IMG/VR virus record: IMGVR_UViG_3300028833_000002 | Source of the DNA: a virus | Taxonomy: Duplodnaviria > Heunggongvirae > Uroviricota > Caudoviricetes | Direction: 5' to 3' (one strand) | Length of the DNA stretch: 64,000 bases | Part shown: positions 24,714-61,828 of the stretch, in pieces | Numbering within the stretch: position 1 is the stretch's first letter | How the letters are laid out: each line of letters starts with the position of its first letter | Program-made: the position numbers and the translations under genes | Notes under the pieces: model-generated | Database searches by the model: none | Told to the model about the DNA's origin: nothing | Seen by the model: only the letters and a program-made list of their open reading frames with translations

Positions 24714-24788
24714 TTCCACGTCGTCAAGAGGCTCAAGACACCGCTCTCTAAAAGCGGCATTTCGAAGGTTCGAATCCTTCCGTGGAAA
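24714..24788 (+). tRNA. amber suppressor tRNA, anticodon CUA (reads UAG); Gln-like body with U1:A72
   Basis: The acceptor is ttccacg/cgtggaa. The anticodon arm is ccgct-ctCTAaa-agcgg. The T-arm is gaagg-ttcgaat-ccttc. It has its own promoter at 24398. Confidence 0.7.
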
Positions 24789-28906: not shown

Positions 28907-29113
28907 ATGCTTGATAATTGGAAAACCAATATACTTGACAATTGGAGAGCTGTAGATATAGAAGGTATTAAATCCGTAATAGCATATCGCGGTCATATTT
29001 TTCTCGACATTGAGGAATTACATCAATGGAAAATAGAAAATGAGTGGAATGGTATTGATATTGCTGTAACCAAAGAAGATATATTAAGAGAAGGAGAAAT
29101 ATATAATGACTAA
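28907..29113 (+). CDS. hypothetical protein Confidence 0.4.
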   Translation: MLDNWKTNILDNWRAVDIEGIKSVIAYRGHIFLDIEELHQWKIENEWNGIDIAVTKEDILREGEIYND

Positions 29114-38819: not shown

Positions 38820-39710
38820 ATGGAATTCAAGAAATATATTGATATTGAACGCTTAAAAGAAAAATATGCTATGGCTTTTAAGCCTGGTGAAATGATTACA
38901 GTTTCCGAGAAAATTGATGGCAGCAATGCCTCGTTTGACGGTAATCTTAATGCCTTCTCTCGTCGTAAGGTATTAGACGAAACAAATACCCTTAATGGCT
39001 TTTATGATTTTGTGAAAACACTTGATGCCACAAAGGTTATGGAGGTTCTTGGTGAGAACTTTATTGTCTTTGGTGAATGGTTGTGCAAGCATACTGTAAA
39101 ATACCCAGAAGATAAGATGCATAAGTTCTACGCCTTTGACGTATGGAATAAGGAAACAGCACAATACCTTCCTTGGAGTGAAGCAAAAAAGATTATCGCA
39201 GAACTTGGTCTTAACACAGTACCAATTTTTTATGAAGGCCCATTCACATCTTGGGATGACATTAATAAATTGGTTGGACAGACAAAAATGGGGGCTTCTC
39301 CTTGCGGGGAAGGACAGGTCGTAAAATCACAGGACAGACTTGACAACAAGTCCTCAAACACCCCGGCATATGTAAAAATTGTTGATGCACGTTTCTCTGA
39401 GGTAAAGGGTCAGAAGGAACAGAAGATGGTTGACCCTGAAAAAATTGCTGCAAAGCATGCTCAGGAAGCTCTTGCTGCAACTATCGTAACAGAAAGACGA
39501 GTAGAAAAACTCATACAGAAAATAATAGAAGACGGTCTTATTCCAGCAGAATGGGATGAAAAGGACCTTGGTACAATTGCAAAGCATCTTCCAAAGGCTG
39601 TATATGCGGACTGCGTAAAGGAAGAACCGGAAACAGTTGCTCAGATTGAAAACTTTGGTAAGATTGCGGCTGGCATTGCAATGAAGCTTGCAAGAGGACT
39701 GGTAAAATGA
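38820..39710 (+). CDS. ATP-dependent RNA ligase, Rnl2-like
   Basis: Nucleotidyltransferase motifs are present: I EKIDGSN, III FGEWL, IV EGQVVK, V YVKIV. Confidence 0.65.
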   Translation: MEFKKYIDIERLKEKYAMAFKPGEMITVSEKIDGSNASFDGNLNAFSRRKVLDETNTLNGFYDFVKTLDATKVMEVLGENFIVFGEWLCKHTVKYPEDKMHKFYAFDVWNKETAQYLPWSEAKKIIAELGLNTVPIFYEGPFTSWDDINKLVGQTKMGASPCGEGQVVKSQDRLDNKSSNTPAYVKIVDARFSEVKGQKEQKMVDPEKIAAKHAQEALAATIVTERRVEKLIQKIIEDGLIPAEWDEKDLGTIAKHLPKAVYADCVKEEPETVAQIENFGKIAAGIAMKLARGLVK

Positions 39711-42677: not shown

Positions 42678-42757
42678 GCTCTCGTGGTGGAATTGGTAGA
42701 CACGTATGCCTTAGGAGCATATGTTAATTCGTGTGGGTTCGAGTCCCACCGGGAGCA
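42678..42757 (+). tRNA. tRNA-Leu(UAG), type II
   Basis: The loop is ctTAGga, the variable arm is long, and the T-loop is GTTCGAGTC. Confidence 0.7.
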
Positions 42758-42759
42758 CT

Positions 42760-42831
42760 GTGTACGTAGTGTAATGGTTAACATGGAAGGATGTGGCCCT
42801 TCCGATGTGGGTCCAATTCCCGCCGTACACC
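42760..42831 (+). tRNA. tRNA-His(GUG); CCA encoded at 42832-42834
   Basis: The acceptor is gtgtacg/cgtacac. The loop is atGTGgc. Confidence 0.6.
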
Positions 42832-42835
42832 CCAC

Positions 42836-42909
42836 CCCCCTGTAATCCAACCGGCAGAGATAGCGCTCTTAAACAGCGTCCAGTACCAGTTCAAATCTGG
42901 TCAGGGGGA
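42836..42909 (+). tRNA. type-I (short variable arm) tRNA with anticodon UAA; Gln-like D-arm
   Basis: The acceptor is ccccctg/caggggg. The anticodon arm is gcgct-ctTAAac-agcgt. The T-arm is accag-ttcaaat-ctggt. Confidence 0.5.
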
Positions 42910-43249
42910 CTTTGATATGACAATGTATGCGAAACATGGACTCGATTAATATAGGCGTTAATTCCTCCGCGGGAGCTGCTTCTCCATGTGCTGTAGGCTC
43001 CTCATTGTCACACAAACGCTCCACAGCGAAAGGTGGCGTAATTCATTCTAGGCAACGTCAAAGCCAAATCAGGAGCTTGGTGAATGTCATTAGAGGACAA
43101 GAAAAGAGCATACCTTTTCTATCCCATTCTTAGCCGAATCTTAAACCAAGGCGTGGATGTGGAAGGGCTTGGCCCGGATGGCAACGCAGACCAACTCACG
43201 AGTGTCTAGGCGTTGAGTAGGTTTAACTTCGGTGAAAATGATTATAACG

Positions 43250-43277
43250 GGGCGAGAATTTATCTCGTCCTTTTTTA
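43250..43277 (+). terminator. rho-independent terminator
   Basis: Hairpin gggcgaga/tctcgtcc followed by TTTTTTATTTT. Confidence 0.55.
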
Positions 43278-43299
43278 TTTTGGAAAATTTTAGTTTCTA

Positions 43300-43328
43300 T
43301 TGACTTTTACTTTAAATTGTGTTATAAT
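43300..43328 (+). promoter_or_regulatory. promoter family copy
   Basis: TTGACT-17-TGTGTTATAAT followed by the leader. Confidence 0.6.
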
Positions 43329-43377
43329 ATATATAGAAAGTTAAGAGAAAGATAAAAACAGAAAGGACGTATCGCTT

Positions 43378-43746
43378 ATGTTAGAATACTTTAACTACGA
43401 AAACTTAGAATTCAAGGGTTTAATCTACAGCCAGAACGTTCCACTTGCCGCAGTTAATGAAGATGAACACATCTGTTGCGGTAGACTTACAGCGTTTGTT
43501 AAGGCTTTTAACAGCAAGGGTAGTTTATCAATTGAATACGGTTTCAGCGATGATGACGACTGGGAACAGTTCCGTGGTTTCAGATGCGAAAACGAAGTAG
43601 AACAGAAGCGTATGTTCGAGGAAATCGTTAGAATTACAAAAGACTTTTGTTCGTTCTACAAGGTAGGTTTTATTCCGGACTTCTACGAAGACTGGTCAAA
43701 GGTCGTAGATTCTACTCTCGGTAAGGCTTCAAAGTATGATTATTAA
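43378..43746 (+). CDS. hypothetical protein
   Basis: A promoter copy lies upstream. Confidence 0.5.
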   Translation: MLEYFNYENLEFKGLIYSQNVPLAAVNEDEHICCGRLTAFVKAFNSKGSLSIEYGFSDDDDWEQFRGFRCENEVEQKRMFEEIVRITKDFCSFYKVGFIPDFYEDWSKVVDSTLGKASKYDY

Positions 43747-43765
43747 TTGAAAGGAATATGAAATT

Positions 43766-44053
43766 ATGAAAATGTGTAAGAATTGCAGAAAAGAATATGG
43801 TTGGAGCAGATATGATGAATATTGCTGCAAGGAATGTTGGGAAGCCAATTATTGGGAGAAGGCTCTTGATAGCAAGGCTATTATAATTGGCGGTCATTGT
43901 TATCATGCTTATGGCGGCAAGTTTGATAAGTCAAAGAAGATTAAGATTAGAATGAATGATGGTACGCTTATTGAAACCTATGAACTGTTCGATGGCGGCA
44001 AGATACCGAGAAAGTTCCATATGAAAGATAATGCAAAGTTTGTTAAGTGGTGA
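43766..44053 (+). CDS. Cys-rich protein Confidence 0.45.
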   Translation: MKMCKNCRKEYGWSRYDEYCCKECWEANYWEKALDSKAIIIGGHCYHAYGGKFDKSKKIKIRMNDGTLIETYELFDGGKIPRKFHMKDNAKFVKW

Positions 44054-44068
44054 GCAATCACCACATAT

Positions 44069-44142
44069 GCTCTCGTAGTCCAATGGCAGTAGACAGTGCA
44101 CTCAAAATGCATCCAGTGTGGGTTCGAATCCCATCGAGAGCA
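44069..44142 (+). tRNA. type-I tRNA with anticodon CAA; Gln-like D-arm (paralogue of 42836)
   Basis: The acceptor is gctctcg/cgagagc. The anticodon arm is gtgca-ctCAAaa-tgcat. The T-arm is gtggg-ttcgaat-cccat. Confidence 0.5.
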
Positions 44143-44163
44143 CTTGGAAAAATCTGGTAGGTG

Positions 44164-44412: not shown

Positions 44413-45534
44413 ATGTTAAAGATTCAGGAGTTTATTTTTGCACATGAAAATTGGCGTGAACTTTTGTCTGCCGCACCATATAATCTTAAAATTACAGAAG
44501 ATGATGGTTTCGTTATCTTTAAGTATAATCAGATAGATTCTGACTTTAACGAAGAAATTTGCAAAGAAGCTCGTGGTCTTATTCTTGACTCTACTGACAA
44601 CTTTAAGGCTGTTAGAATGGCGTTTAAAAAGTTCTTTAATCTCGGGGAATCTCATGCCGCAAAAATTGATTGGAATACTGCGACAGCCGGAGAAAAACTT
44701 GACGGTAGCCTTATGTCTGTATGGTATGCTCGCGGCGAATGGCATTTAAGCACCAATGGTACCATTGATGCCTTTAAAGCTCCACTTAACGGTGTTGGTC
44801 CATACAAGAACTTCGGTGAGTTATTTACTTCTGTAATGCCATTAGATTTCTTCGAAGGTGAACACTTCGGTAAGAACTGGGCAGACTTAAACTTATGTTT
44901 CACTTTCGAGTTAGTTTCTCCTTATAACAAGGTTGTTATAGACTACCCTGAAACAAAGGTATACTTACTTTCTATGCGTGAGATGGACACACTTCACGAA
45001 ATTAGCGGTGATGTAGTTAGAACTTTTGGTAAGATTAACGGCCTCAACCTTCCACAAGAATACAAACTCAGTAATGAAAAGGAATTTTGTGAGCTTGTAG
45101 AGTCTATGCCGGACGGCCATGAAGGTATCGTAGTTCGTGATATGTACAATGAACGTGTAAAGATAAAGACAAAGAGATACTTTGAACTTCATCGTATGGT
45201 TAACAATGGTGTAATTACTATTGAAAGAATTGTAGAATTAATCAAAGCAAATGACTATGAAGAGCTTTTAGCCTACTATCCGGAGATGACAGAAAAATTC
45301 ACAAAAATTATGTATCAGATACAATCCGCTGATGCTTACATCAAAAGAGTAAAGGCAGAAGTTAACACTTGTAAGAAATTTCAGGCCAACCGTAAAGATT
45401 TTGCCGAGTTCGCAAAACAGCAGAAAATCCCGGCATTATACTTCGCCGCGCTGGATGGAAAGATAGACAATTTTGTTGAGAAATTAACCACAAATCAGTT
45501 CATTAAGATGTTTAAGATAGGAGAAGACATATGA
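44413..45534 (+). CDS. RNA-ligase-like nucleotidyltransferase (Rnl1-like)
   Basis: Motif I is GEKLDGS, motif IV EGIVVRD, motif V VKIKTKR. Confidence 0.6.
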   Translation: MLKIQEFIFAHENWRELLSAAPYNLKITEDDGFVIFKYNQIDSDFNEEICKEARGLILDSTDNFKAVRMAFKKFFNLGESHAAKIDWNTATAGEKLDGSLMSVWYARGEWHLSTNGTIDAFKAPLNGVGPYKNFGELFTSVMPLDFFEGEHFGKNWADLNLCFTFELVSPYNKVVIDYPETKVYLLSMREMDTLHEISGDVVRTFGKINGLNLPQEYKLSNEKEFCELVESMPDGHEGIVVRDMYNERVKIKTKRYFELHRMVNNGVITIERIVELIKANDYEELLAYYPEMTEKFTKIMYQIQSADAYIKRVKAEVNTCKKFQANRKDFAEFAKQQKIPALYFAALDGKIDNFVEKLTTNQFIKMFKIGEDI

Positions 45535-51518: not shown

Positions 51519-51591
51519 TGCTCCATAGTGGCAATTGGTAAAACAGCGGAATTTGACTCCGTATTTCCAGGTTCGAATCCTGGTGGGGCAA
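51519..51591 (+). tRNA. tRNA-Gln(UUG)
   Basis: The loop is atTTGac. U1:A72 is present. It has its own promoter at 51453. Confidence 0.65.
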
Positions 51592-51624
51592 TCGAATTTT
51601 TTAATTCAGAAAGGATTTTTAATT

Positions 51625-52035
51625 ATGGGTTATTACACAAATTTTCATATGACAGTAGCAAAGGTTATAGACGGAAGAACAGTAATTCTTGATAAAGAAG
51701 ATGCCGATTATGACAAAATCGCTTGTGCCTTTTATGACATTTGGGAATGTCCAAGTGAAGATGTTCGCAAATCAGAATGGTATCTTGATGAAGCAAGAGA
51801 ACTCTTTGAGGAAATTACCGTTGACGATAAGGAAGGCAAGTGGTATGAATATGAAGAAGATATGATTCGTCTTTCTAAGGAATTCCCGGACTTCACTTTT
51901 GTACTTGAAGGTCGTGGCGAAGAGCGTCCAGACTGGTGGGTAGGAAGTTGGGAAAATGGAATTGGTTCAGTTCACTATGCTAAAATTGTTGAGCCAGAGT
52001 GCCCAATTTGGTATAACCTCCATCCGGATTTCTAA
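51625..52035 (+). CDS. hypothetical protein
   Basis: ATG 51625 follows an AAAGGA ribosome-binding site. The track ORF start at 51535 lies inside tRNA-Gln. Confidence 0.5.
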   Translation: MGYYTNFHMTVAKVIDGRTVILDKEDADYDKIACAFYDIWECPSEDVRKSEWYLDEARELFEEITVDDKEGKWYEYEEDMIRLSKEFPDFTFVLEGRGEERPDWWVGSWENGIGSVHYAKIVEPECPIWYNLHPDF

Positions 52036-52048
52036 GAAACCTTAATTC

Positions 52049-52077
52049 TTTACAAATTCTAAAAATTATGTTATAAT
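52049..52077 (+). promoter_or_regulatory. promoter family copy
   Basis: TTTACA-17-TATGTTATAAT. Confidence 0.55.
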
Positions 52078-52101
52078 AATTATAGAAAATGAGAAAGGAA
52101 C

Positions 52102-52284
52102 TTGATTATGACAAGATGGAATGTAGTTAGAATAAATCCTGAAACAAAGGAAAGAATTCCTCTTCCTGCTTCTTACTCTGATAAGAAATATGCTGAGGAT
52201 TTAGCTAGAGCATTTAATTATGAATGGAAGCATCCTGAAACTGGTTTAGTTTTTAAACTTGAAGTTGAGAGCCGTGAAGTTTAA
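52102..52284 (+). CDS. small protein Confidence 0.4.
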   Translation: MIMTRWNVVRINPETKERIPLPASYSDKKYAEDLARAFNYEWKHPETGLVFKLEVESREV

Positions 52285-52287
52285 TTC

Positions 52288-52316
52288 TTTACAAATTCTA
52301 AATTTTATGGTATAAT
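52288..52316 (+). promoter_or_regulatory. promoter family copy driving the 52.4-53.6 kb tRNA island
   Basis: TTTACA-17-TATGGTATAAT. Confidence 0.55.
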
Positions 52317-52440
52317 AAATATAGAAATTGAGAAAAGAGTATTTCAAAACATTTGTGAAACTTCGGTCCGATTCCGGGGTAGAGTCGCTCTAAGGGGCGA
52401 ACTGCTGGTTGCAATACCAAAGTCAATTTCTTAAATATAT

Positions 52441-52512
52441 AGGTCTTTGGTGTAACGGGAGCATATTCGCCTCCAAAGCGATAAGGTGTGGGTTCAAATC
52501 CTACAGGACCTG
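52441..52512 (+). tRNA. tRNA-Trp(CCA)
   Basis: The loop is ctCCAaa. Confidence 0.6.
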
Positions 52513-52835
52513 TTAATCGTCGTAGGTTCAAGTCCTACCCCCAAAGAATAAAATCTCTGAGGGGACAATCGGAGAGACGAGAGGAGATAACCTCTATAAA
52601 AGAACCATGTTTGCCGACTACACGTTAATATAAGCCGGGAAATTCGCCATCAGCACCACCCATTAAGGTGGATGGACGTGGAAGTAATGGTCCACCTTGG
52701 CACCCAACGTGTCAAGTAGCCGAGAGAATAAATGGCGGAGTAACTCAGACGGCTCTGAGCACTATCTTGAAAATAGTTGGTACCGTGAAGAGCGGTATGG
52801 GGCTCGACACCTCACCTCACTTCGCCGCCAAATAA

Positions 52836-52906
52836 TGCTCCTTAGTGAAGCGGTAACACAGTAGGCCCTGACCCTATAATCGAAGGTTCGAATCCTTCAG
52901 GAGCAA
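52836..52906 (+). tRNA. tRNA-Gln(CUG)
   Basis: The loop is ccCTGac. U1:A72 is present. Confidence 0.6.
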
Positions 52907-52912
52907 TTAAAT

Positions 52913-52986
52913 GCCGTTGTAGCTCAGTTAGTAGTAGCGCGTGTCTGAAGAACACGAGGTCGAAGGTGCAATCCCTTCCGGCGGCA
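52913..52986 (+). tRNA. tRNA-Phe(GAA)
   Basis: The loop is ctGAAga. Confidence 0.65.
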
Positions 52987-53086
52987 CTTAAAGTAATTAT
53001 AAGGATAACCTAGAGTCCTCAGAGTGCGCACCAAGTTCAGAATAAGGTTTCGGTGAAGTCTGAATGTCCTTTGTAATTACTTAGTA

Positions 53087-53159
53087 TGCGACAGTGGCCT
53101 AATGGATAGGGCAGCATCCTTCTAAGATGTTTGGTGAAGGTTCGATTCCTTCCTGTCGC
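53087..53159 (+). tRNA. tRNA-Arg(UCU)
   Basis: The loop is ctTCTaa. Confidence 0.65.
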
Positions 53160-53165
53160 GTTTGA

Positions 53166-53255
53166 TGGTCACATAAGCCTAATGGTAAGGCAGTTGTTTG
53201 CTAAACAATGAGTAATCGGTTATTCCGGTGTTTAGGTTCAAGTCCTAATGTGACC
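53166..53255 (+). tRNA. tRNA-Ser(GCU), type II
   Basis: The loop is ttGCTaa. The variable arm is long. Confidence 0.65.
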
Positions 53256-53265
53256 GCTTTATAAA

Positions 53266-53339
53266 TGACGGTGTGGTGAAGTGGTTTAACGCGGCCGGCC
53301 GCAACCCGGTTATTCGTAGGTTCAAATCCTACCACCGCC
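53266..53339 (+). tRNA. tRNA-Cys(GCA) (tentative)
   Basis: The loop is ccGCAac. There is one acceptor mismatch. Confidence 0.5.
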
Positions 53340-53534
53340 TTATGGGTTCCTTATGATATACAGAGCTATATAGCTATTCATAAGGTTGGATAAAGTGTTA
53401 GATTATTAGCACCGAAAATAAAATTCGATATAAGCCGAAATGTATAATACTAGTCAAAGATTTCGGTGTGCCAGTTTCCAAAGAATTTTGTTAAGTCTTC
53501 GGACGGAACTTTTTAGGGTGAGGGGCACAATTAT

Positions 53535-53618
53535 CGGCGTGTGGCGGAATTGGCAGACGCGCCAGCCTAAGGAGCTGGTGTCCTTCGGGACGTGTGGGTT
53601 CGAGTCCCACCACGCCGA
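53535..53618 (+). tRNA. tRNA-Leu, type II, anticodon AAG as folded (A34 is unusual)
   Basis: The loop is ctAAGga. The variable arm is long. Confidence 0.55.
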
Positions 53619-53639
53619 CTTTATCTTGAAAACTTAATA

Positions 53640-54236
53640 AAAAGTATGTTGTAACCATGTGTTAAAATGAGGGACTAATCATCTCTGCATGGGCGCGGCG
53701 GAACGGCTGAGAGGTCGGGTCAAGGGATACCTTGACAGGGTTTCTTTTCTGATGTTGAAAGGCTGAGGAACAAGATGGTATACCAGCCATCAAGAGAGAA
53801 GTCGCGGCACAAGGACAACGTGAGTAATGGCACACCTAACCTGGTTGCTCCAACAATAGACGCTCTCTGTGAGAGAATAACCCCGTAGACCACATCCGCA
53901 AGATGTGAGTAAATGCTGGGAACGCAAAATAATGGAGTTGAGCCGAGAACGGCTTGAAAAAGCTGGAATAAACCCGATGGTGGTGCGAGTAGCCCAAGGC
54001 TTAGACTGGTTATTAGATTTCTATAATTTAAGGAAAATCTGAACGATGGGTGAAAGTTGGAGGTAAACAAATCCTCTCAGTGCTTTAGGTTCTTCGGAAC
54101 TGCGGTAAGAAGTTTTAGAGCGACGGCTTTAAGGCTCAGACTTATCGTCACTGTGGCTGAATAATACGTAGCGTTGTTTAAGTATGGCGAACAAAAACCA
54201 GCAATGTATTTTTTATTAGGTTTTCAAGATAGATAT
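53640..54236 (+). ncRNA. ~600-nt non-coding, GC-enriched, structured region inside the tRNA island (unknown RNA; candidate group-I-intron-like or Y-RNA-like element)
   Basis: Stops are dense in all three + frames. Many complementary segments are present (for example gggatacc...ggtataccagcc). The only ORF is a minus-strand one (53720-54070) with no ribosome-binding site. Confidence 0.3.
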
Positions 54237-54309
54237 GCCCTCATAGCTCAGTTGGCAGAGCACCGTCTTGATAAGGCGGGTGTCGAAGGTTCAATCCCTT
54301 CTGAGGGCA
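54237..54309 (+). tRNA. tRNA-Ile(GAU)
   Basis: The loop is ttGATaa. Confidence 0.7.
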
Positions 54310-54312
54310 CTG

Positions 54313-54393
54313 TGCCGGAGGCCGAATAGTGTAGTGGTTAGCACGCCAAGAGATACAGACTTGGAAACAGCGGTTCAAATCCGCTTTGGGTGG
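54313..54393 (+). ncRNA. tRNA-like element with canonical D- and T-arms, unpaired acceptor and a 9-nt anticodon-position loop
   Basis: tagtgtagtggttagcac and agcgg-ttcaaat-ccgct are present. I could not close an acceptor helix. Confidence 0.3.
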
Positions 54394-54791
54394 ACCGGAC
54401 TTAAAAGCGCTAGTCCAGTAAGTGCATTGCTGCCATATTAATGCTTAATATGGTTCGAGCCATAGAAATATGGTGAAAGTCCCTTTGATGATACAGCCAG
54501 AAGGGCGGAGAGCGAGTAAGTCTTATAGGTCGCGGCCTATAAGTACCGAGGACATGCAAAACTGATGTTATGGAATATCCCGGCACCGTGTTGTCGTTAG
54601 AGATGCATCAGGCTCACACACGGATATGTGCCTATAATTCAATGGTAGAATAGCGGTCTTTGTGAAAATAGTTTAATGTAAAACTTTGAACCGAATGGTT
54701 TGAAATATGAGTTCGATTCTCATTTTTCGCGCTAAACCGTCTATCCCAGTTCAACTCTGGGTGGGCGCACTTTGGAAAAATTTATAAAATA

Positions 54792-57320: not shown

Positions 57321-57950
57321 TTGGCATACATTTATAAAATCACAAATCTTATCAATGGCAAACTTTATATAGGTAAAACTTATAATTCTATTTAGGAAAG
57401 ATTTAAAGAGCATTGTAAAGATAGTCAAAGAGAACGATGCGAAAAAAGACCTTTATATAGTGCCATGAGAAAATATGGAACTGAAAATTTCACAATAGAA
57501 TTAATTGAGGAAACTTCTGTTCCAGAGGAGAGAGAAAAATATTGGATTGAATATTATGGTTCTTTCAAAAATGGTTATAATGCAACAATAGGCGGTGACG
57601 GGAAACCTTATATAGATAGAGATTTGGTAGTTGCCACTTATAAAGCTACATTAAATCAGGCAGAGGTTGCAAGAATTATGAATATTTCTACTGATAGCGT
57701 TAGTTTAATTCTTAAAGAAAAAGATGTAGACACAATTCCCTCTACTCTAGTTAGCCAAAGAGTTAATGGTAAAGTTGTAAATCAATATTCTCTTGATGGT
57801 GAATATATACAATCTTTTCCGTCAGCTTTAGCGGCGGCAAGAGCTTTAGGGAAAATAACTCCAACATCTAAAGGTGCTTCTTCTCAAATCTCTTCAGTTT
57901 GTAGAGGTAAAAGGAAAAGTGCTTATGGATACAAGTGGAGTTGGGGATAA
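57321..57950 (+). CDS. GIY-YIG homing-endonuclease-like protein; TTG start; 1 in-frame TAG
   Basis: YIYKITNLINGKLYIGKT...R...E...N are present. An AAGGAG ribosome-binding site lies 11 nt before TTG 57321. The gene is next to the tRNA island. Confidence 0.55.
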
Positions 57951-58092
57951 ATTATTCCCAACAAATATACGGGGCGCGGGACTGCAAGGGGTGGTCATCT
58001 GTCTTGCAAACAGAAAATCAGCTGGATTCGATTTCCAGGCGCTCCACTTATCATCCGGCTTGGTGAAGCCTTTGAATTCACCGTCCTTTCTT

Positions 58093-58164
58093 GGCCCTAT
58101 CGTCTAGCGGTTAGGACGTCAGCTTTTCACGCTGAAAACCCCAGTTCGATTCTGGGTAGGGTCA
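58093..58164 (+). tRNA. tRNA-Glu(UUC)
   Basis: The loop is ttTTCac. Confidence 0.7.
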
Positions 58165-58253
58165 TCAGATTGAAGCAGACTTGACGCTTACTTCGTAAGT
58201 TTTTGGGTACTTATACAGAAAAAATCAGCGTCATACATATTCTCAATCTTTAT

Positions 58254-58327
58254 GGGAGATTAGCTCAGCTGGTCAGAGCGGAACCCTGTTAAGGTTACGG
58301 TCATAGGTTCAAATCCTATATCTCCCG
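58254..58327 (+). tRNA. tRNA-Asn(GUU)
   Basis: The loop is ctGTTaa. Confidence 0.6.
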
Positions 58328-58331
58328 CTAT

Positions 58332-58402
58332 GGTCTATTCGTTCAACGGTAGGACGGCCGACTGTCTATCGGCAGATAGGGGTTCGATTCCCCTATGGAC
58401 CG
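58332..58402 (+). tRNA. tRNA-Asp(GUC)
   Basis: The loop is ctGTCta. Confidence 0.65.
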
Positions 58403-58493
58403 CTTAGTATCCGATTCGTTACTTGGACGTATTCCAAGCCAATTCCACAAATTACGACGGACGGCTCTACTAATCCATTAATTTAATTTATAT

Positions 58494-58564
58494 AGAGGAT
58501 GTGGTGTAATGGGAGCATACTTCATTTGGGGTGAAGGGGAGCAGTTCAAATCTGACATCTTCTA
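58494..58564 (+). tRNA. tRNA-Pro(UGG)
   Basis: The loop is ttTGGgg. Confidence 0.6.
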
Positions 58565-58570
58565 TCGTAT

Positions 58571-58639
58571 GAAGTGAGGGCAAATGGTAAGTCATTTAGT
58601 TACAAACTAAAAGGAGTGGGTTCGATTCCCATCGCTTCT
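58571..58639 (+). tRNA. atypical tRNA, anticodon ACA as folded (3-bp D-stem)
   Basis: The acceptor is gaagtga/tcgcttc. The loop is ttACAaa. Confidence 0.35.
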
Positions 58640-58642
58640 TTC

Positions 58643-58712
58643 GCGGCGAGGACAAATGGAAAGTCGCCGTCCTCATAAGTCGGAGATAGTAGGTTCGATT
58701 CCTACCGCCGCA
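58643..58712 (+). tRNA. tRNA-Met/fMet/Ile2 (CAU)
   Basis: The loop is ctCATaa. The 5' acceptor is formed by a copy of the TCGCGGCGA motif. Confidence 0.6.
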
Positions 58713-59014
58713 ATCGGTCGTCGCAGACCAAGTATTGGTTGCTATTAACCAATTTAGAGTGTAGATGGTGAATGGTCTTCTACATAGTCCATCATACTCT
58801 ACCAGACACAGTAGAAGAGTGGGTTGGAAGTTTTTTATCATGTTTCTTACAAAAATACATGGTTGACAGGTAGACCAAAGAGAGCCTACTGCTGAACGAG
58901 GAGAGAGGACGTTCCGGTTTTCCCACTAGCACCGTAACGTTAGTAGGGAGCGGAGCACTGCTCAGTGTGTGGTCGTTGGCGGGATGGAGTCATCGTGAAC
59001 AAGAATTCCATCCA

Positions 59015-59098
59015 AATTTATGGACAAGTGTGGAAAGCGGCGAAACCAGCGGACTGTAAATCCGTGACATTAGAAACACCGAAGGTTCGAGTCCTTCC
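59015..59098 (+). tRNA. tRNA-Tyr(GUA), type II
   Basis: The loop is ctGTAaa. Confidence 0.7.
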
Positions 59099-59342
59099 TT
59101 GTCCATTATGTTGAAGCAGTTTAATGAGATACTTCATAACAGAATTTAAGGATGACACATTCTATTATATTTGATTTCTCGTCAAGAAATCGCGGCTAGC
59201 CCAAGGCAGAAATTGGGCATTTACTTCTCATTAAGACATTCTCAACAGTTATTTTTTAAAATTGACAGAAGCAGTATGAACACTTACTTCATTAGACATG
59301 CAATCTGATTTTTAGTCGTGTTCGTTATATTCTCTGTCCTCA

Positions 59343-59413
59343 GCAGATGTAGTTTAATGGTAAAACCTCCGGCCTCCACCCGGAAAATATGAGTCCGATT
59401 CTCATTATCTGCT
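59343..59413 (+). tRNA. tRNA-Gly(UCC)
   Basis: The loop is ccTCCac. Confidence 0.65.
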
Positions 59414-59429
59414 TTAGCCGAAGCATTAG

Positions 59430-59507
59430 AAAACGGTTACTTCAATTGGTTTGAAAATTTCTTTGCTCAGAAATAGTGCGGTTCGAGTCCGTTTAACCCG
59501 TTTTCAC
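59430..59507 (+). ncRNA. tRNA-like element: perfect 7-bp acceptor (gaaaacg/cgttttc), T-arm-like GGTTCGAGTCC, non-canonical anticodon region (6-bp stem with 6-nt loop, or 8-nt loop)
   Basis: Hand fold. Confidence 0.3.
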
Positions 59508-59604
59508 CTTTCTCGGTCATTAGTTTTAAGTCGATGCAATATATACGGTTACTTCGACAGCCTGTTAACCTGTAATTGATACCTTCCGTATATAATTTTC
59601 TCGA

Positions 59605-59677
59605 CTATATGCTCCTGTAGCACAATTGGTAGTGCGCGAAACTTGTAATTTCGAGGTTCTCGGTCCGAGTCCGAGTG
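59605..59677 (+). tRNA. tRNA-Thr(UGU)
   Basis: The loop is ctTGTaa. Confidence 0.7.
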
Positions 59678-59685
59678 GGAGCTTA

Positions 59686-59716
59686 AATAATGACCGGATA
59701 GTTTAACTGTCCGGTC
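59686..59716 (+). terminator. rho-independent terminator closing the tRNA island
   Basis: Hairpin gaccgga/tccggtc followed by TTTTTT. Confidence 0.6.
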
Positions 59717-59726
59717 TTTTTTATTC

Positions 59727-59755
59727 TTTACTTTTAAAAGAAATTATGTTATAAT
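59727..59755 (+). promoter_or_regulatory. promoter family copy (ahead of 59788 and Ro60)
   Basis: TTTACT-17-TATGTTATAAT followed by TTATAGAAAGTTAAGAGAGGAAAAG. Confidence 0.55.
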
Positions 59756-59787
59756 AATTATAGAAAGTTAAGAGAGGAAAAGTGAGT

Positions 59788-60081
59788 ATGACAACACCAC
59801 AATGTTTTGAAATAATCTCAGAAGAAAAACTCAGATTAATGCCCACGAAAAATCTTATAGACCTTATGAGAGTTTATGATTATATTCGCCCCGATTACAC
59901 ATATGACTGCTATTGGAGCAATTGCAGATGCCAAAAGGCTTGTAAGGCTCTTCGCCGCGAAATGGCAATGAGAATTTACACAATTCTCAAAACAAGACCT
60001 CACATCCCAAATAAGGCAGAAGCTAAGAAAATAAGACAAGAACGTGCGGCAAAGAGATTTAAGACAACATCCGCAAGATAA
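59788..60081 (+). CDS. basic Cys-containing protein immediately upstream of the Ro60 gene
   Basis: A ribosome-binding site and a promoter copy are present. Confidence 0.45.
   Translation: MTTPQCFEIISEEKLRLMPTKNLIDLMRVYDYIRPDYTYDCYWSNCRCQKACKALRREMAMRIYTILKTRPHIPNKAEAKKIRQERAAKRFKTTSAR
59951..59961. repeat. exemplar TTCGCCGCGAA
   Basis: Perfect palindrome inside a CDS. Confidence 0.6.
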
Positions 60082-60098
60082 TTAAGGAGGACGATATT

Positions 60099-61754
60099 AT
60101 GAGCAGAATAGCAAGAGAAATTAAGGCAGAAAACAAGACAAAGAACACAGTAACAAACTTTATGGGCGGCAAGTCTTATACAATTAATCCGATTGATACG
60201 CTTAAATTAGTTGCGGCTTCATCAATCTTTGGTGAACCATCTTATTACCGTTCAAATGTAAGAGAAGCAAGATACCGTTGCGACAGACTGGTTGAAAACT
60301 TCTTTCCAGATTACATTGGTAAGACAACAACAGAAATCTTTGAAGATGTAATTGACAATGCTCTTTCTTATGATTTCGGCGCAACACTCGAATTTGCCGC
60401 AGAACTTAGAAATACCTATAATATGAGATTAAACCCACAGGTAATCATGGTTCGTGCCGCAATCCACGAGGGTAGAGCAAAGTTCACATCTGAAAACCCT
60501 GGTCTTTTCGCGGCAATAAATGATAAGGTAATGGCAAGAGCAGATGAACCAGCAACTCAGCTTGCATATTACATCTACAAGAACGGCGGCAAGTCAAAGC
60601 TCCCATCTGTATTAAAGAGAAGCATTGCTGATAAGCTCTCAAAGCTCGATGCATATGCGGTTAATAAGTATAAAAATGCTGAAATCGGCATGATAAATGC
60701 CGTTCGTCTTACACACGCAAATTCTCCAGTGTTAGATGACCTCTTAAATGACAATTTAAAGGTTTCAGATGCCGACGAAACATGGGAACAGAAGCGCTCA
60801 CGCGGCATGGGTTGGAAGGAAATCTTCAACTCAACAAACATGGGACACATGGCACTTTTAAGAAACCTTAGAAACGTTTTCGAGGAAGTTGAAGATATTA
60901 ACTTCGCTAAGAAATACCTTAAGAAGTTAAAGGATGGTGTACTTCGCGGCAAGCAGTTCCCATTCAGATACTACACAGCAATGGGTGTTATCGAAGCATC
61001 AAGAGTTAACTACAAGTCCCTTATCCTCGATACTCTTGAAGAATGTATGGATATTGCTATCGACAATATGCCAAAGTTAAAGGGTAAGACAATGTGCTTA
61101 TCTGATAACAGTGGTTCTGCTTGGGGCGGTATCACATCAGAGTATGGTAGCGTTGTAGTCGCCGAAATCGACAACCTTTCTTCTGTAATTGCTGGAAAGC
61201 TCTCAGACGAAGGTTATGTTGGTAAGTTCGGTGATAAGTTAAAGGTCTTCCCAGTTTCCAAGAGAAATGGATGCTTAATTCAGGCAAAGGAAATCAGCAG
61301 AGATAAGTCTCACGATGTTGGTGGTTCTACTGAAGGCGGCATTTGGGAGTTCCTTATCAACGCAATCAATGATGGTGAGTTCTACGATAATATCTTTATC
61401 TTCTCTGATATGCAGGCTGGACACGGTGGCCTTTACGGCACATCGGTTCAGATGAGCAGATACAGCAGCAAGTATGGTGTTGATGGTGGACGTTATATCG
61501 ACGTTTACAAGTTAGTTAAGGAATACCGTCAGAAGGTAAACCCAAAGGTCAATGTCTTCATGGTGCAGACTGCCGGCTACAACAACGTAATCTTACCAGA
61601 ATACTCTTACAGAACTGCTATCCTCTCCGGATGGACAGGTAAGGAAGTTAGCTTCGCGGCAGACTTCATTAAGAGATGGGATGATATTGAGGACAGACAG
61701 AACGCCCCAAGGCAGAAGTCAAGGTCAAATCTTCCACCAGTAAGATATAGATAA
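60099..61754 (+). CDS. rsr: Ro60/Rsr orthologue (TROVE domain plus vWA/MIDAS)
   Basis: The TROVE signature is GGKSYTINPIDTLKLVAASSIFGEPSYY. The C-terminal MIDAS is DNSGSAW. The size is about 551 aa. An AAGGAGG ribosome-binding site is present. Confidence 0.75.
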   Translation: MSRIAREIKAENKTKNTVTNFMGGKSYTINPIDTLKLVAASSIFGEPSYYRSNVREARYRCDRLVENFFPDYIGKTTTEIFEDVIDNALSYDFGATLEFAAELRNTYNMRLNPQVIMVRAAIHEGRAKFTSENPGLFAAINDKVMARADEPATQLAYYIYKNGGKSKLPSVLKRSIADKLSKLDAYAVNKYKNAEIGMINAVRLTHANSPVLDDLLNDNLKVSDADETWEQKRSRGMGWKEIFNSTNMGHMALLRNLRNVFEEVEDINFAKKYLKKLKDGVLRGKQFPFRYYTAMGVIEASRVNYKSLILDTLEECMDIAIDNMPKLKGKTMCLSDNSGSAWGGITSEYGSVVVAEIDNLSSVIAGKLSDEGYVGKFGDKLKVFPVSKRNGCLIQAKEISRDKSHDVGGSTEGGIWEFLINAINDGEFYDNIFIFSDMQAGHGGLYGTSVQMSRYSSKYGVDGGRYIDVYKLVKEYRQKVNPKVNVFMVQTAGYNNVILPEYSYRTAILSGWTGKEVSFAADFIKRWDDIEDRQNAPRQKSRSNLPPVRYR

Positions 61755-61761
61755 TATAAAG

Positions 61762-61791
61762 GGAGTAGGAAAAATTTTCCTACTCCTTTTT
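61762..61791 (+). terminator. rho-independent terminator after Ro60
   Basis: Hairpin ggagtagga/tcctactcc followed by TTTTT. Confidence 0.6.
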
Positions 61792-61828
61792 CATTTTTTC
61801 AAAAAAATTTTTTGAGATTCGACTAAAA

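What the first reader, a model, noticed from the sequence alone, without database searches (positions are those of the whole stretch)
58700..61754. Ro60/TROVE orthologue next to the tRNA island, with unassigned structured spacers that may be Y-RNA-like partners
Gene 60099-61754 has the Ro60 TROVE signature (FGEPSYY) and a C-terminal MIDAS (DNSGSAW). In bacteria, rsr is normally paired with Y RNAs (YrlA) that contain a tRNA-like module.

The adjacent tRNA island contains several non-tRNA structured segments. These are 58713-59014 (about 300 nt), 59099-59342 (about 240 nt) and the tRNA-like element at 59430-59507. The last has a perfect acceptor and a T-arm but no canonical anticodon arm. They are candidate Ro-binding RNAs.
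Basis: partly seen in the sequence, partly recalled or inferred. Interest (0 to 1): 0.8.

Follow-up and report, generated by a model that had tools for sequence, protein, structure and literature searches.

The report
Phage Ro60 gene with five Y-RNAs
A rumen-type phage carries a Ro60-like RNA-binding protein gene. Just upstream, packed between its tRNA genes, lie five small structured RNAs built on the lower stem of bacterial Y RNAs, so this is a new variant of a known protein-RNA partnership, not a new kind of system.

Summary
ORF 60099-61754 is a full-length Ro60 orthologue. It has a TROVE hit, a predicted HEAT ring plus vWA fold that matches every solved Ro60, and a DxSxS MIDAS motif.

The tRNA island holds five paralogous units:
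- U1 58167-58249
- U2 59108-59248
- U3 59263-59339
- U4 59415-59519
- U5 59528-59607

Each unit has an outer stem, an internal loop (GA(A/U)GCA on the 5' side, AUUC/UUUC on the 3' side), a second stem, UUACUUC (AUACUUC in U2) and a variable apical domain. Only U4 has a T-arm.

A covariance model built only from other genomes finds exactly these five sites in the 64-kb window. In 85 loci encoding related TROVE proteins, 102 of its 105 hits lie on the TROVE strand and 90 lie within 1 kb of the gene.

Relatives' units score below threshold, some of them full length, against Rfam YrlA. The window's units do not score at all.

The 305-nt spacer (58716-59020) is a conserved structured RNA of unknown class.

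Binding and expression are inferred, not shown.

The parts
60099..61754 (+). Ro60/TROVE orthologue, 551 aa: HEAT-repeat ring plus C-terminal vWA domain with a MIDAS motif
   Evidence: - Pfam TROVE PF05731, E 2.5e-8, 34 bits against a cutoff of 23.
- phrog_850 'RNA-binding protein', full length, E 8e-49.
- Best PDB sequence hit is 9KOP/9L5Y, the phiRo60 protein of Thermus phage phiLo, E 1e-12.
- AF2 model: pLDDT 79.8, pTM 0.80.
- The top 13 PDB fold hits are all Ro60 structures (9KOP, 1YVP, 2NVO, 9NEN).
- D336, S338, S340, T411 and D437 are invariant in 20 homologues.
58167..58249 (+). Y-RNA-like unit U1 (83 nt), hairpin type. It starts 1 nt after tRNA-Glu and ends 4 nt before tRNA-Asn.
   Evidence: - R1 model: 48.9 bits, E 6e-9.
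- Sequence-only model: 15.8 bits.
- The MFE fold gives outer stem, internal loop, stem 2 and an apical hairpin; z = -2.7.
- Conserved in L001, L002, L008 and L210.
59108..59248 (+). Y-RNA-like unit U2 (141 nt) with a long three-hairpin apical domain. It starts 2 nt after tRNA-Tyr. It has AUACUUC in place of UUACUUC.
   Evidence: - R1 model: 39.8 bits, E 8.5e-7.
- MFE fold z = -3.6.
- Two compensatory pairs in the outer stem between orthologues.
59263..59339 (+). Y-RNA-like unit U3 (77 nt), hairpin type. It ends 2 nt before tRNA-Gly.
   Evidence: - R1 model: 46.2 bits, E 2.7e-8.
- MFE fold z = -2.7.
- Stem 2 changes from ACAC/GUGU to ACGC/GCGU in L001, a compensatory change.
59415..59519 (+). 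Y-RNA-like unit U4 (105 nt), the only unit with a tRNA-like apical domain. The domain has a GG-loop hairpin, an anticodon-like arm with a 6-nt loop and a T-arm (GCGG-UUCGAGU-CCGU). The 5' motif is GCCGAAG. The unit starts 1 nt after tRNA-Gly.
   Evidence: - R1 model: 36.8 bits, E 4e-6.
- Fold shown.
- Nearly invariant in four orthologues, with variation concentrated in the anticodon-like loop.
- Not called as a tRNA.
59528..59607 (+). Y-RNA-like unit U5 (80 nt), hairpin type. It ends 3 nt before tRNA-Thr.
   Evidence: - R1 model: 45.0 bits, E 5e-8.
- MFE fold z = -3.8.
- An 84%-identical copy lies between two tRNAs in the more distant TROVE phage L003.
58716..59020 (+). Spacer A: a conserved structured RNA of about 305 nt and unknown class. 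It does not have the Y-like scaffold.
   Evidence: - 89.5-95% identical in L001, L002 and L008, and present in L210.
- RNAalifold predicts 88 pairs, 8 of them with compensatory changes, and a long-range helix closing the 5' and 3' ends.
- No R1, R2 or Rfam hit.
- No relatives by nhmmer in 1.9 Mb of loci, nor by two exact-pattern scans of IMG/VR.
58092..59683 (+). tRNA genes that punctuate the units: Glu 58092-58166, Asn 58254-58328, Asp, Pro, Cys, Met 58641-58715, Tyr 59021-59106, Gly 59342-59414, Thr 59611-59683.
   Evidence: - Called by ARAGORN and by the Rfam tRNA model.
- Gaps between units and tRNAs are 0-4 nt, read from the coordinates. This leaves no room for separate promoters.
59692..59716 (+). 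Intrinsic-terminator-like hairpin (11 bp followed by a T-run). It ends the tRNA/Y-RNA array upstream of the Ro60 operon.
59727..59755 (+). Promoter-like site (TTTACT, 17-nt spacer, TG-TATAAT) ahead of ORF 59782-60081 and the TROVE gene
   Evidence: - Site found.
- The same element recurs elsewhere in relatives.
59782..60081 (+). Small ORF (99 aa, Cys-rich with a basic tail) directly upstream of the TROVE gene. Function unknown; restricted to this lineage.
   Evidence: - No Pfam or PHROG hit.
- tblastn finds it only in L001, L002 and L008.
61758..61790 (+). Terminator-like hairpin after the TROVE gene

Best explanation
ORF 60099-61754 encodes a phage Ro60 orthologue. The tRNA island just upstream encodes five Y-RNA-like partner RNAs, U1-U5.

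**Shared scaffold.** Each unit pairs its own 5' and 3' ends into a 6-7-bp outer stem. Above that sits a conserved asymmetric internal loop, with GA(A/U)GCA on the 5' side and AUUC/UUUC on the 3' side. A second stem of 6-10 bp follows, capped by UUACUUC (AUACUUC in U2). This lower half has the same layout as the lower half of the Rfam YrlA model and is the likely Ro60 docking site.

**Apical domains.** The five apical domains differ. Four are hairpin types like YrlB or Yrn2. U4 has a tRNA-like module with a T-arm, arranged like D. radiodurans Yrn1.

**Inferred steps.**
- The units are transcribed with the tRNAs as one precursor, up to the terminator at 59692.
- Host RNase P and 3'-end tRNA processing cut at the abutting tRNAs and release the units.
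- Ro60 binds each scaffold.
- The different apical domains tether the Ro60 ring to different host factors, for example PNPase, as shown for D. radiodurans, Salmonella and Thermus phage phiLo.
- The resulting particles take part in RNA surveillance, decay or repair during infection, alongside the phage's RNA ligases, polynucleotide kinase and Thg1-like enzyme.

**Shown here:** protein family and fold, RNA family, predicted structure, and genomic linkage.

**Inferred:** transcription, processing, binding and cellular role.
For: **Protein**
- TROVE domain, PHROG, PDB sequence and fold matches, and invariant MIDAS residues.

**RNA family found independently of the window**
- Model R1 was built from 20 units of other genomes, including Bacillus phage G and Ruminococcus and other Clostridia MAGs.
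- On the whole 64-kb window, both strands, R1 finds exactly five hits. All are on the + strand, with E from 6e-9 to 4e-6, and nothing else appears up to E=10.
- A sequence-only model finds the same five sites at 9-19 bits, against 37-49 bits with base pairs. The two models are weighted differently, so the gap is only indicative of a pairing contribution.
- Each unit's MFE fold gives the same architecture on its own.
- In the training alignment both stems are 95% paired, and 13 of 14 pairs show changes on both sides. Slide controls give 33-45% pairing.
- Orthologue comparisons add compensatory pairs.

**Linkage to TROVE genes**
- In 85 TROVE loci (833 kb), R1 gives 105 hits at E<=0.01. Of these, 102 are on the TROVE strand and 90 lie within 1 kb of the ORF. 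58 of 85 loci have such a hit.
- Reverse test: of 80 IMG/VR loci picked only by a 15-base 5' motif, 6 have R1 hits. TROVE is adjacent in 2 of those 6, and much less sequence is held for three of the other four. None of the 74 loci without R1 hits encodes TROVE.

**Bridge to known Y RNAs**
- Relatives' units with T and D arms match Rfam YrlA RF02553 over the same regions as the R1 hits: 43.3, 43.3, 35.3 and 32.8 bits against a gathering score of 69. The two 43-bit matches cover the full model; the other two cover only part of it.
- The YrlA hallmarks GNCGAAN0-1G and a downstream YUAY (PMC4201824) correspond to GCCGAAG ... UUAC in U4.
- 35 of 48 loci have at least one unit bearing a T-loop. This fits the published rule of one tRNA-like Y RNA plus hairpin Y RNAs per locus.

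**Published precedents**
- Phage phiLo Ro60 binds two upstream Y-like RNAs and host PNPase (PMC12135203).
- D. radiodurans Yrn1 and Yrn2 are co-transcribed with tRNA-Asp.

**Context**
- A terminator and a promoter-like site separate the RNA array from the TROVE operon.
- RNA-repair genes lie in the same window.
Against: - No Rfam Y_RNA or YrlA hit in the window at E<=10.
- Four of the five units have no tRNA-like module, and U4's arm order differs from YrlA's.
- The 5' motif matches GNCGAAG fully only in U4 (U2 and U5 match 6 of 7 positions; U1 and U3 match 5 of 7).
- The units used to train the model were selected by a script that required pairing, so the percentage paired is partly circular.
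- 24 of 85 TROVE loci have no R1 hit at E<=0.01 (some have short flanks).
- In one relative (L003), the single unit lies 5.3 kb from the TROVE gene.
- No expression, end-mapping or binding data exist.
- U2/U3 and U4/U5 are separated by only 14 and 8 nt with no tRNA between them. How they would be separated, or whether they are, is unknown.
Confidence: 0.8

Rival explanations
1. The units are cis-acting spacer elements of the tRNA precursor, such as processing, stability or folding hairpins for tRNA maturation. They have nothing to do with Ro60, and the linkage arises only because TROVE genes sit in phage tRNA islands.
For: - All five units abut tRNA genes within 0-4 nt.
- In L003 the only unit lies between two tRNAs, 5.3 kb from the TROVE gene.
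- Many related loci are rich in tRNAs.
Against: - The window has two other tRNA clusters (42678-44143 and 51519-54732) with spacers but no unit.
- In bacterial relatives such as Acetatifactor muris (L024), the unit is a stand-alone gene with its own TTGACA and -10 elements and a U-tract, 66 nt upstream of the TROVE ORF.
- In L009-L016, L103 and L163, tandem units follow the TROVE stop codon directly.
- Relatives' units match Rfam YrlA.
Confidence: 0.08
2. The units are decayed tRNA genes or a small mobile or duplicated repeat that spread within the island, without a function of their own.
For: - U4 contains a T-arm and a cloverleaf-like core.
- In L061 a unit encloses a sequence scoring 50 bits as a tRNA.
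- The units are paralogous repeats.
Against: - The units are more conserved than the neighbouring functional tRNAs across phages with 82-87% protein identity.
- Paralogues keep the stems through different sequences, which is covariation and not simple copying.
- The conserved loop motifs are retained from Bacillus phage G to rumen Clostridia.
Confidence: 0.04
3. The units are regulatory elements for the TROVE mRNA, for example leader or trailer sites bound by Ro60 to autoregulate its own expression, and not trans-acting Y RNAs.
For: In many loci the units lie 150-450 nt upstream of the TROVE ORF, or immediately downstream, on the same strand.
Against: - In the window a strong terminator (59692-59716), tRNA-Thr and a promoter-like site separate the units from the TROVE operon.
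- U1 lies 1.9 kb upstream, with eight tRNAs in between.
- There are up to 5-7 copies with different apical domains.
- Homologous YrlA and Yrn RNAs are known to act in trans.
Confidence: 0.03
4. The 305-nt spacer A (58716-59020) is also a Ro60 partner, as a large divergent Y RNA or a dedicated Ro60 substrate.
For: - It is conserved and structured, with its 5' and 3' ends paired.
- Its first 35 nt loosely resemble the unit 5' motif: GGUCGUCGCAG...GGUUGCUAUU against GUCGAUGCAG...GGUUACUUC. This is read directly from the sequence.
- It sits in the same array.
Against: - No R1 or R2 hit at E<=10.
- The predicted closing helix has only a 2x2 internal loop and not the conserved loop pair. There is no AUUCUC on the 3' side.
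- It was not found in any other TROVE locus.
Confidence: 0.15

Closest known systems
YrlA / YrlB of Salmonella Typhimurium and Mycobacterium smegmatis (Rfam RF02553; Chen et al. 2014, PMC4201824)
   Same: - Encoded within 2 kb of a Ro60 gene and on the same strand.
- 5' and 3' ends are paired.
- Conserved 5' motif (GNCGAAN0-1G, compared with GCCGAAG / GNNGA(A/U)G) followed about 20 nt later by YUAY (UUAC).
- Same lower-half layout as the Rfam model: P1, then an AUGC-type loop, then P2, then YUA.
- Several Y RNAs per locus, with one tRNA-like and the others hairpin-like.
- Relatives of the window's units score 33-43 bits on RF02553.
   Different: - The window's units get no RF02553 hit.
- None has the permuted T-arm, closed acceptor stem and D-arm domain that defines YrlA.
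- The loop consensus differs (GA(A/U)GCA, UUACUUC, AUUCUC).
- There are five copies interleaved with tRNA genes, not one or two in an rsr-rtcBA operon.
Deinococcus radiodurans Yrn1 / Yrn2
   Same: - Y RNAs are co-transcribed with a tRNA as a polycistronic precursor.
- Yrn1 has a T-arm, a weak D-like element and an anticodon-like arm with a 5-bp stem and 6-nt loop, in normal tRNA order. U4 has the same arrangement.
- Yrn2 is a plain long hairpin, like U1, U3 and U5.
   Different: - No sequence homology was tested or is evident.
- The Deinococcus Ro site keeps both strands of the metazoan-type bulged helix, which the window's units do not.
Thermus phage phiLo phiRo60 with Yrl1 and Yrl2 (PDB 9KOP, 9L5Y; PMC12135203)
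   Same: - Closest solved protein: E 1e-12 by sequence, TM 0.64/0.75 by fold.
- A phage-encoded Ro60 with several Y-like RNAs just upstream of its gene.
- The RNAs have a stem, a large internal loop with a CGAA-type motif, and a second stem.
- Binding to these RNAs and a ternary complex with host PNPase have been shown experimentally.
   Different: - About 20% protein identity.
- Two RNAs instead of five, and no reported embedding in a tRNA array.
- The RNAs were not compared directly here because their sequences were not retrieved.
Bacillus phage G gp540 ('putative TROVE domain ribonucleoprotein')
   Same: - Closest annotated phage protein, 54% identical.
- Lies in a tRNA-rich region.
- Seven unannotated units with the same scaffold surround it: five in the 1-kb gap upstream, one further upstream carrying T and D arms, and one 3.7 kb downstream.
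   Different: - Loop variant GA(A/U)GCGG with AACAG-UUACUUC.
- The units are mostly not directly flanked by tRNAs.
Metazoan Y RNAs
   Same: About 80-140 nt, with a terminal stem that carries the Ro60 site (GGUCCGAAG, compared with GCCGAAG in U4) and a variable effector-binding upper part.
   Different: - Transcribed by Pol III.
- The Ro site is a bulged helix with both strands conserved.
- No tRNA linkage.

Membership tests
Ro60 / Rsr (TROVE protein) | TROVE domain detectable above the curated threshold | tested here: met
   - Pfam PF05731: 34 bits against a cutoff of 23, matching only aa 226-300.
- phrog_850: full length, E 8e-49.
- No NCBIfam model hits.
Ro60 / Rsr (TROVE protein) | HEAT-repeat ring closed by a C-terminal vWA domain, superposable on solved Ro60 structures | tested here: met
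   - AF2 model: pLDDT 79.8, pTM 0.80.
- The 13 best Foldseek PDB hits (E<=0.001) are all Ro60: 9KOP TM 0.64/0.75, 2NVO 0.55/0.60, 1YVP 0.55/0.57.
Ro60 / Rsr (TROVE protein) | MIDAS motif DxSxS...T...D in the vWA domain | tested here: met
   - D336-N-S338-G-S340 is present, and D336, S338, S340, T411 and D437 are invariant in 20 homologues.
- Assigning T411 and D437 to the MIDAS site rests on the motif pattern only.
Ro60 / Rsr (TROVE protein) | Binds Y RNAs on the outer ring surface | not testable with these tools
   Needs EMSA, RIP or a solved complex.
YrlA (Rfam RF02553) | Covariance-model score at or above the gathering threshold (69 bits) | tested here: not met
   - No YrlA hit in window 57900-60150 at E<=10, nor at the gathering threshold in the whole window.
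- Relatives reach 33-43 bits.
YrlA (Rfam RF02553) | GNCGAAN0-1G near the 5' end and a YUAY about 20 nt downstream | tested here: inconclusive
   - U4 has GCCGAAG, an exact match. U5 (GUCGAUG) and U2 (GUUGAAG) match 6 of 7 positions. U1 (AUUGAAG) and U3 (ACAGAAG) match 5 of 7.
- UUAC is present in U1, U3, U4 and U5; U2 has AUAC.
YrlA (Rfam RF02553) | Permuted tRNA-like domain: T-arm, then a closed acceptor-like stem-loop, then a D-arm | tested here: not met
   - Only U4 has a T-arm, and its order is GG-hairpin, anticodon-like arm, then T-arm, with no closed acceptor stem.
- The permuted domain is present in relatives L024, L005, L061 and L006.
YrlA (Rfam RF02553) | Encoded within about 4 kb of the Ro60 gene and on the same strand | tested here: met
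   The units lie 491 nt (U5 end) to 1932 nt (U1 start) upstream of the ORF start at 60099, all on the + strand.
Y RNA (general class) | About 80-130 nt, with 5' and 3' ends paired into a stem that carries a conserved loop or bulge, and a variable upper domain | tested here: met
   - Units are 77-141 nt.
- MFE folds, covariation and the structure-aware model all support the two stems and the conserved loops.
Y RNA (general class) | Stable association with Ro60 in vivo (the definition of the class) | not testable with these tools
   Only genomic linkage is available: 90 of 105 model hits lie within 1 kb of a TROVE ORF on its strand.
tRNA | Cloverleaf recognised by tRNA detectors, with a 7-nt anticodon loop | tested here: not met
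   U4 is not called by ARAGORN or by Rfam RF00005 at E<=10. Its anticodon-like loop has 6 nt, and its 'acceptor' helix runs on for 8-11 bp into the scaffold.

The most novel reading that the evidence does not exclude
The five units would form a tRNA-punctuated set of interchangeable Ro60 adaptors, released by the host's own tRNA-processing enzymes. Each apical domain would direct the phage Ro60 ring to a different host nuclease or RNA substrate. The tRNA-like U4, whose anticodon-like loop is the fastest-changing part, would act as a decoy or sensor for host anticodon nucleases. The Ro60-Y particles would then work with the phage's RNA ligases, polynucleotide kinase and Thg1-like enzyme as a tRNA surveillance and repair system in the phage-host conflict. 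The recurrent neighbours, ROOL RNA and the 305-nt spacer A RNA, could be further RNA components or substrates.
Probability: 0.15. Interest if true: 0.8.

Novelty: new variant of a known kind. Interest (0 to 1): 0.55.

Why it matters
- **What the family offers.** Ro60-Y RNA particles are well known in animals and in a few bacteria, but what the RNAs do is still poorly understood. This analysis defines a large, previously unmodelled branch of the system in Clostridia and their phages. More than 4000 protein homologues were detected. The RNA scaffold has its own conserved consensus and occurs in arrays of up to 5-7 units with clearly modular upper domains. That is a natural experiment on how Y RNAs diversify their effector ends.
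- **What the window adds.** The units are wedged between tRNA genes with gaps of 0-4 nt. This points to tRNA-processing enzymes as the maturation route. They lie in a phage that also carries a tRNA-repair toolkit, which gives a concrete and testable setting for the function of phage Ro60.
- **Practical consequence.** The Rfam YrlA model misses these RNAs, so current annotation leaves them as empty spacers.
- **Possible wider interest.** From my own knowledge, not checked here: gut-commensal Ro60 orthologues have been discussed as triggers of anti-Ro autoimmunity. An abundant Ro60 RNP family in gut and rumen Firmicutes and their phages may therefore interest that field.

Tried and rejected
- **Rfam on the window.** The gathering-threshold scan of the whole window and the E<=10 scan of 57900-60150 found only tRNAs, ROOL and chance hits. 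There was no Y_RNA or YrlA hit.
- **Megablast of 57900-61800 against GenBank phages.** No match.
- **GAAGCA-N17-TACTTC as a sigma-70 promoter.** Considered because the spacing is fixed. Rejected for three reasons:
  - The conserved heptamer is not similar to TATAAT.
  - The flanking sequences covary with partners 60-140 nt downstream.
  - The promoter scan finds nothing there above the shuffle expectation.
- **U4 as a real tRNA or frameshift suppressor.** Rejected. It is not called by the tRNA detectors, and its acceptor helix continues into the scaffold.
- **Spacer A as a known RNA or a Y-like unit.** There is no Rfam, R1 or R2 hit. Two exact-pattern IMG/VR scans and nhmmer against 1.9 Mb of loci found only the immediate lineage. 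It is left unassigned.
- **Desulfovibrio phage 7757 (34% identical TROVE, L007).** No unit was found by regex or R1, so the scaffold consensus may not extend that far.
- **ORF99 (59782-60081) as a conserved Ro60 partner.** It is restricted to the close lineage and has no family hit.
- **First structure job.** It was rerun without that row.
- **Two Y RNA reviews (PMC10870794, PMC6047535).** Not held in the library.
- **Metagenome scan.** Not used.

Full report
**What is at the coordinates**

The window looks like part of a large phage genome. It has 26 tRNA genes in three clusters and a ROOL RNA. It also has a tail-fibre-like protein, helicases, homing endonucleases and RNA-repair enzymes. Its relatives are IMG/VR viral contigs and rumen or gut MAG contigs.

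The three named non-tRNA segments are the gaps tRNA-Met/tRNA-Tyr, tRNA-Tyr/tRNA-Gly and tRNA-Gly/tRNA-Thr. They fold better than shuffled controls, with z-scores of -2.7, -3.1 and -2.1. In two relatives whose TROVE proteins are 82-87% identical, the spacers are more conserved than the tRNAs beside them. That is a strong sign of function.

**The protein**

- Pfam TROVE is above its cutoff but covers only aa 226-300. phrog_850 'RNA-binding protein' matches full length at E 8e-49.
- The best PDB sequence match is 9KOP/9L5Y. This is phiRo60 of Thermus phage phiLo (PMC12135203).
- An AlphaFold2 model built from 20 homologues has pLDDT 79.8 and pTM 0.80.
- All 13 of its significant Foldseek PDB matches are Ro60 structures: phage phiLo, Xenopus, human and Deinococcus Rsr, with TM scores of 0.48-0.64 normalised to the query. 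vWA domains follow only at E>=4e-3.
- D336, S338, S340, T411 and D437 fit DxSxS...T...D and are invariant.

The protein is therefore a distant but complete Ro60 orthologue. The family is large: more than 4000 hits, with about 60% identity common in Ruminococcus, Lachnospiraceae and other Clostridia MAGs and in phage contigs. The closest annotated phage protein is Bacillus phage G gp540, at 54% identity.

**The RNAs**

Reading the spacers revealed a repeated 5' motif, GA(A/U)GCA-N10-12-TTACTTC. It occurs five times within 1.4 kb, always on the + strand.

Each copy is the 5' half of a unit with this layout:
- an outer stem of 6-7 bp;
- a 5' internal-loop strand, (A/U)GCA plus 1-4 nt;
- a second stem of 6-10 bp;
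- UUACUUC (AUACUUC in U2);
- a variable apical domain of 27-95 nt;
- the return strand of stem 2;
- a 3' loop strand ending AUUC or UUUC;
- the return strand of the outer stem.

Independent MFE folds of the five units all give this architecture.

The same motif and layout appear next to TROVE genes in more distant genomes:
- three units directly upstream of the gene in phage contig L005;
- five in the unannotated 1-kb gap before phage G gp540, plus two more nearby;
- tandem triplets or quintets upstream or immediately downstream of the gene in Ruminococcus-type contigs and jumbo-phage contigs.

**Independent detection and linkage**

I built covariance model R1 from 20 units. None came from the window, its close relatives, or L003, which carries a near-copy of U5.

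- On the whole window, both strands, R1 reports exactly five hits and nothing else up to E=10:
  - U1 58167-58249 (48.9 bits)
  - U3 59263-59339 (46.2 bits)
  - U5 59528-59607 (45.0 bits)
  - U2 59108-59248 (39.8 bits)
  - U4 59415-59519 (36.8 bits)
- A sequence-only model from the same alignment finds the same five sites at only 9-19 bits. The two models are weighted differently, so the difference only suggests, and does not measure, what base pairing contributes.
- In the training alignment the two stems are 95% paired, and 13 of 14 pairs change on both sides. Slid controls give 33-45%. The percentage paired is inflated because my extraction script required pairing. The covariation and the blind detection in the window are not affected in the same way.
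- Orthologue comparisons add compensatory pairs in U2's outer stem and U3's stem 2.
- Across 85 TROVE loci (833 kb), R1 gives 105 hits at E<=0.01. Of these, 102 are on the TROVE strand and 90 lie within 1 kb of the ORF. 58 loci have such a hit.
- In a reverse test, 80 IMG/VR loci were chosen only by a 15-base 5' motif, and most of these are chance matches. Six had R1 hits. TROVE was adjacent in two of the six, and much less sequence is held for three of the other four. None of the 74 R1-negative loci encoded TROVE.

**Relation to known Y RNAs**

Rfam contains YrlA (RF02553). It does not hit the window. It does hit relatives' units that carry T and D arms, over the same regions as the R1 hits. 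The two 43-bit matches cover the full model and the other two cover only part of it:
- L024 4803-4938, 43.3 bits
- L061 4574-4683, 43.3 bits
- L005 5708-5782, 35.3 bits
- L050 2791-2850, 32.8 bits

The gathering score is 69.

The alignment of L024 to the YrlA consensus shows the same lower half: P1, an AUGC-type loop, P2, then CUA/UUA. Chen et al. 2014 define YrlA by three features: GNCGAAN0-1G near the 5' end, a YUAY at about nt 22-25, and a permuted tRNA-like domain. They report that each species has one tRNA-like Y RNA plus hairpin-type ones. They also report that D. radiodurans Yrn1 and Yrn2 are co-transcribed with tRNA-Asp, and that Yrn1 has normal arm order with a 6-nt anticodon-like loop.

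In the window:
- U4 has GCCGAAG ... UUAC, a T-arm and the Yrn1-like arm order.
- The other four units are hairpin types.
- Among 81 regex-defined units in 48 loci, 37 carry a T-loop. Of these, 19 have T-then-D order. 35 loci have at least one such unit.

The window's units therefore share the Ro-binding half of YrlA but fail the family's defining tests. They are best described as a divergent Y-RNA-like set.

**Organisation and likely mechanism**

The units abut tRNAs closely. U1 starts 1 nt after tRNA-Glu and ends 4 nt before tRNA-Asn. U2 starts 2 nt after tRNA-Tyr. U3 ends 2 nt before tRNA-Gly. U4 starts 1 nt after tRNA-Gly. U5 ends 3 nt before tRNA-Thr. A strong terminator-like hairpin follows tRNA-Thr at 59692-59716. 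A promoter-like site at 59727-59755 precedes a lineage-specific 99-aa ORF and the TROVE gene, and a second terminator follows that gene.

From this I infer the following, none of which is shown:
- The tRNAs and units are transcribed together.
- RNase P and tRNA 3'-end processing release the units.
- Ro60 binds the conserved loop-stem module.
- The different apical domains recruit different factors.

The precedent is the Ro60-Y RNA-PNPase complex of Deinococcus and Salmonella, and the phiLo phage complex with host PNPase.

The window also encodes two RNA ligases, a polynucleotide kinase and a Thg1-like enzyme. This fits the published view that phage TROVE proteins belong to RNA-repair systems (PMC7824862).

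**The 305-nt spacer**

Spacer A (58716-59020) is 89.5-95% conserved in four close relatives. Its consensus fold has 88 pairs, 8 of them with compensatory changes, and its ends are paired. It lacks the scaffold loops and is missed by R1, R2 and Rfam. It has no detectable relatives beyond the lineage. I leave it as an unassigned structured RNA.

**Verdict**

This is a Ro60-Y RNA system, which is a known kind. Phage examples with upstream Y-like RNAs were published in 2014 and 2025. The RNAs form a variant that existing models do not recognise: a distinct conserved scaffold, five modular copies, and tRNA punctuation. I found no description of such arrays in the searchable literature. That library is incomplete, and two key reviews were not available.

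Confidence that the five units are the Ro60 partner RNAs is 0.8. Interest is 0.55.

Noticed in passing
window 53631-54219 (+); also L001 642-1225 and L042 711-1285: A full-length ROOL RNA (285 bits) sits in a neighbouring tRNA cluster. ROOL recurs in two other TROVE/tRNA-array loci, so ROOL, tRNA arrays and Ro60/Y-like RNAs tend to travel together in these phages.
   Followed up: partly
window 24714-24788 (+): A tRNA with a CUA anticodon (amber-suppressor type; ARAGORN labels it tRNA-Pyl) lies far from the main tRNA clusters. Phage G likewise has a tRNA with a UUA anticodon near its TROVE gene. This may indicate stop-codon suppression or recoding.
   Followed up: no
window 54662-54732, 54320-54393 and 58569-58642 (+): Three odd tRNA-like genes:
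- One has a 2-nt 'anticodon' (6-nt loop).
- One is called by Rfam only.
- One is a tRNA-Cys with an ACA anticodon that overlaps tRNA-Met by 2 nt.
   Followed up: no
window 38820-39710, 44413-45534, 23029-23991, 29106-29918 (+): An RNA-repair and tRNA-maintenance gene set:
- RNA ligase (phrog_548)
- Rnl1-like RNA ligase (phrog_562)
- polynucleotide kinase (phrog_505)
- Thg1-like tRNA-His guanylyltransferase (phrog_4717)
   Followed up: partly
window 58716-59020 (+): A structured RNA of about 305 nt, restricted to this lineage and of unknown class. It has paired ends and 8 compensatory pairs among 4 sequences, and matches no Rfam family.
   Followed up: yes
window 57465-57950 (+): A GIY-YIG/NUMOD-type homing endonuclease gene ends 20 nt before tRNA-Ala, at the start of this tRNA/Y-RNA cluster.
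   Followed up: no
L210 5515-5957 (breakpoint corresponds to window 59056/59057): In a relative with 85% TROVE identity, the tRNA-Tyr gene position is interrupted by a ~440-nt insertion carrying a PDDEXK_5 ORF, and ARAGORN no longer calls tRNA-Tyr. This may be an intron or a homing-endonuclease insertion.
   Followed up: no
L061 4351-4483: A unit with the Y-like scaffold has an apical domain that scores as a genuine tRNA (Rfam 50 bits at 4379-4451). This suggests the scaffold can carry a nearly intact tRNA.
   Followed up: partly
L006 (Bacillus phage G, JN638751) 2780-2935, 4257-4934, 10362-10426: Seven unannotated Y-like units lie around gp540 of a cultured, sequenced jumbo phage. One has T and D arms in YrlA order. 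This phage would be a tractable system for experiments.
   Followed up: partly
L103 12335-13005 and L163 457-1179: Arrays of five tandem units start within about 15-90 nt of the TROVE stop codon in 204-kb and 156-kb viral contigs. Five-unit arrays are therefore recurrent in this family.
   Followed up: partly
window 59723-59776 (+): A promoter-like AT-rich element ahead of the TROVE operon recurs at several places in relatives L001 and L210. It is probably a phage-specific promoter repeat.
   Followed up: no
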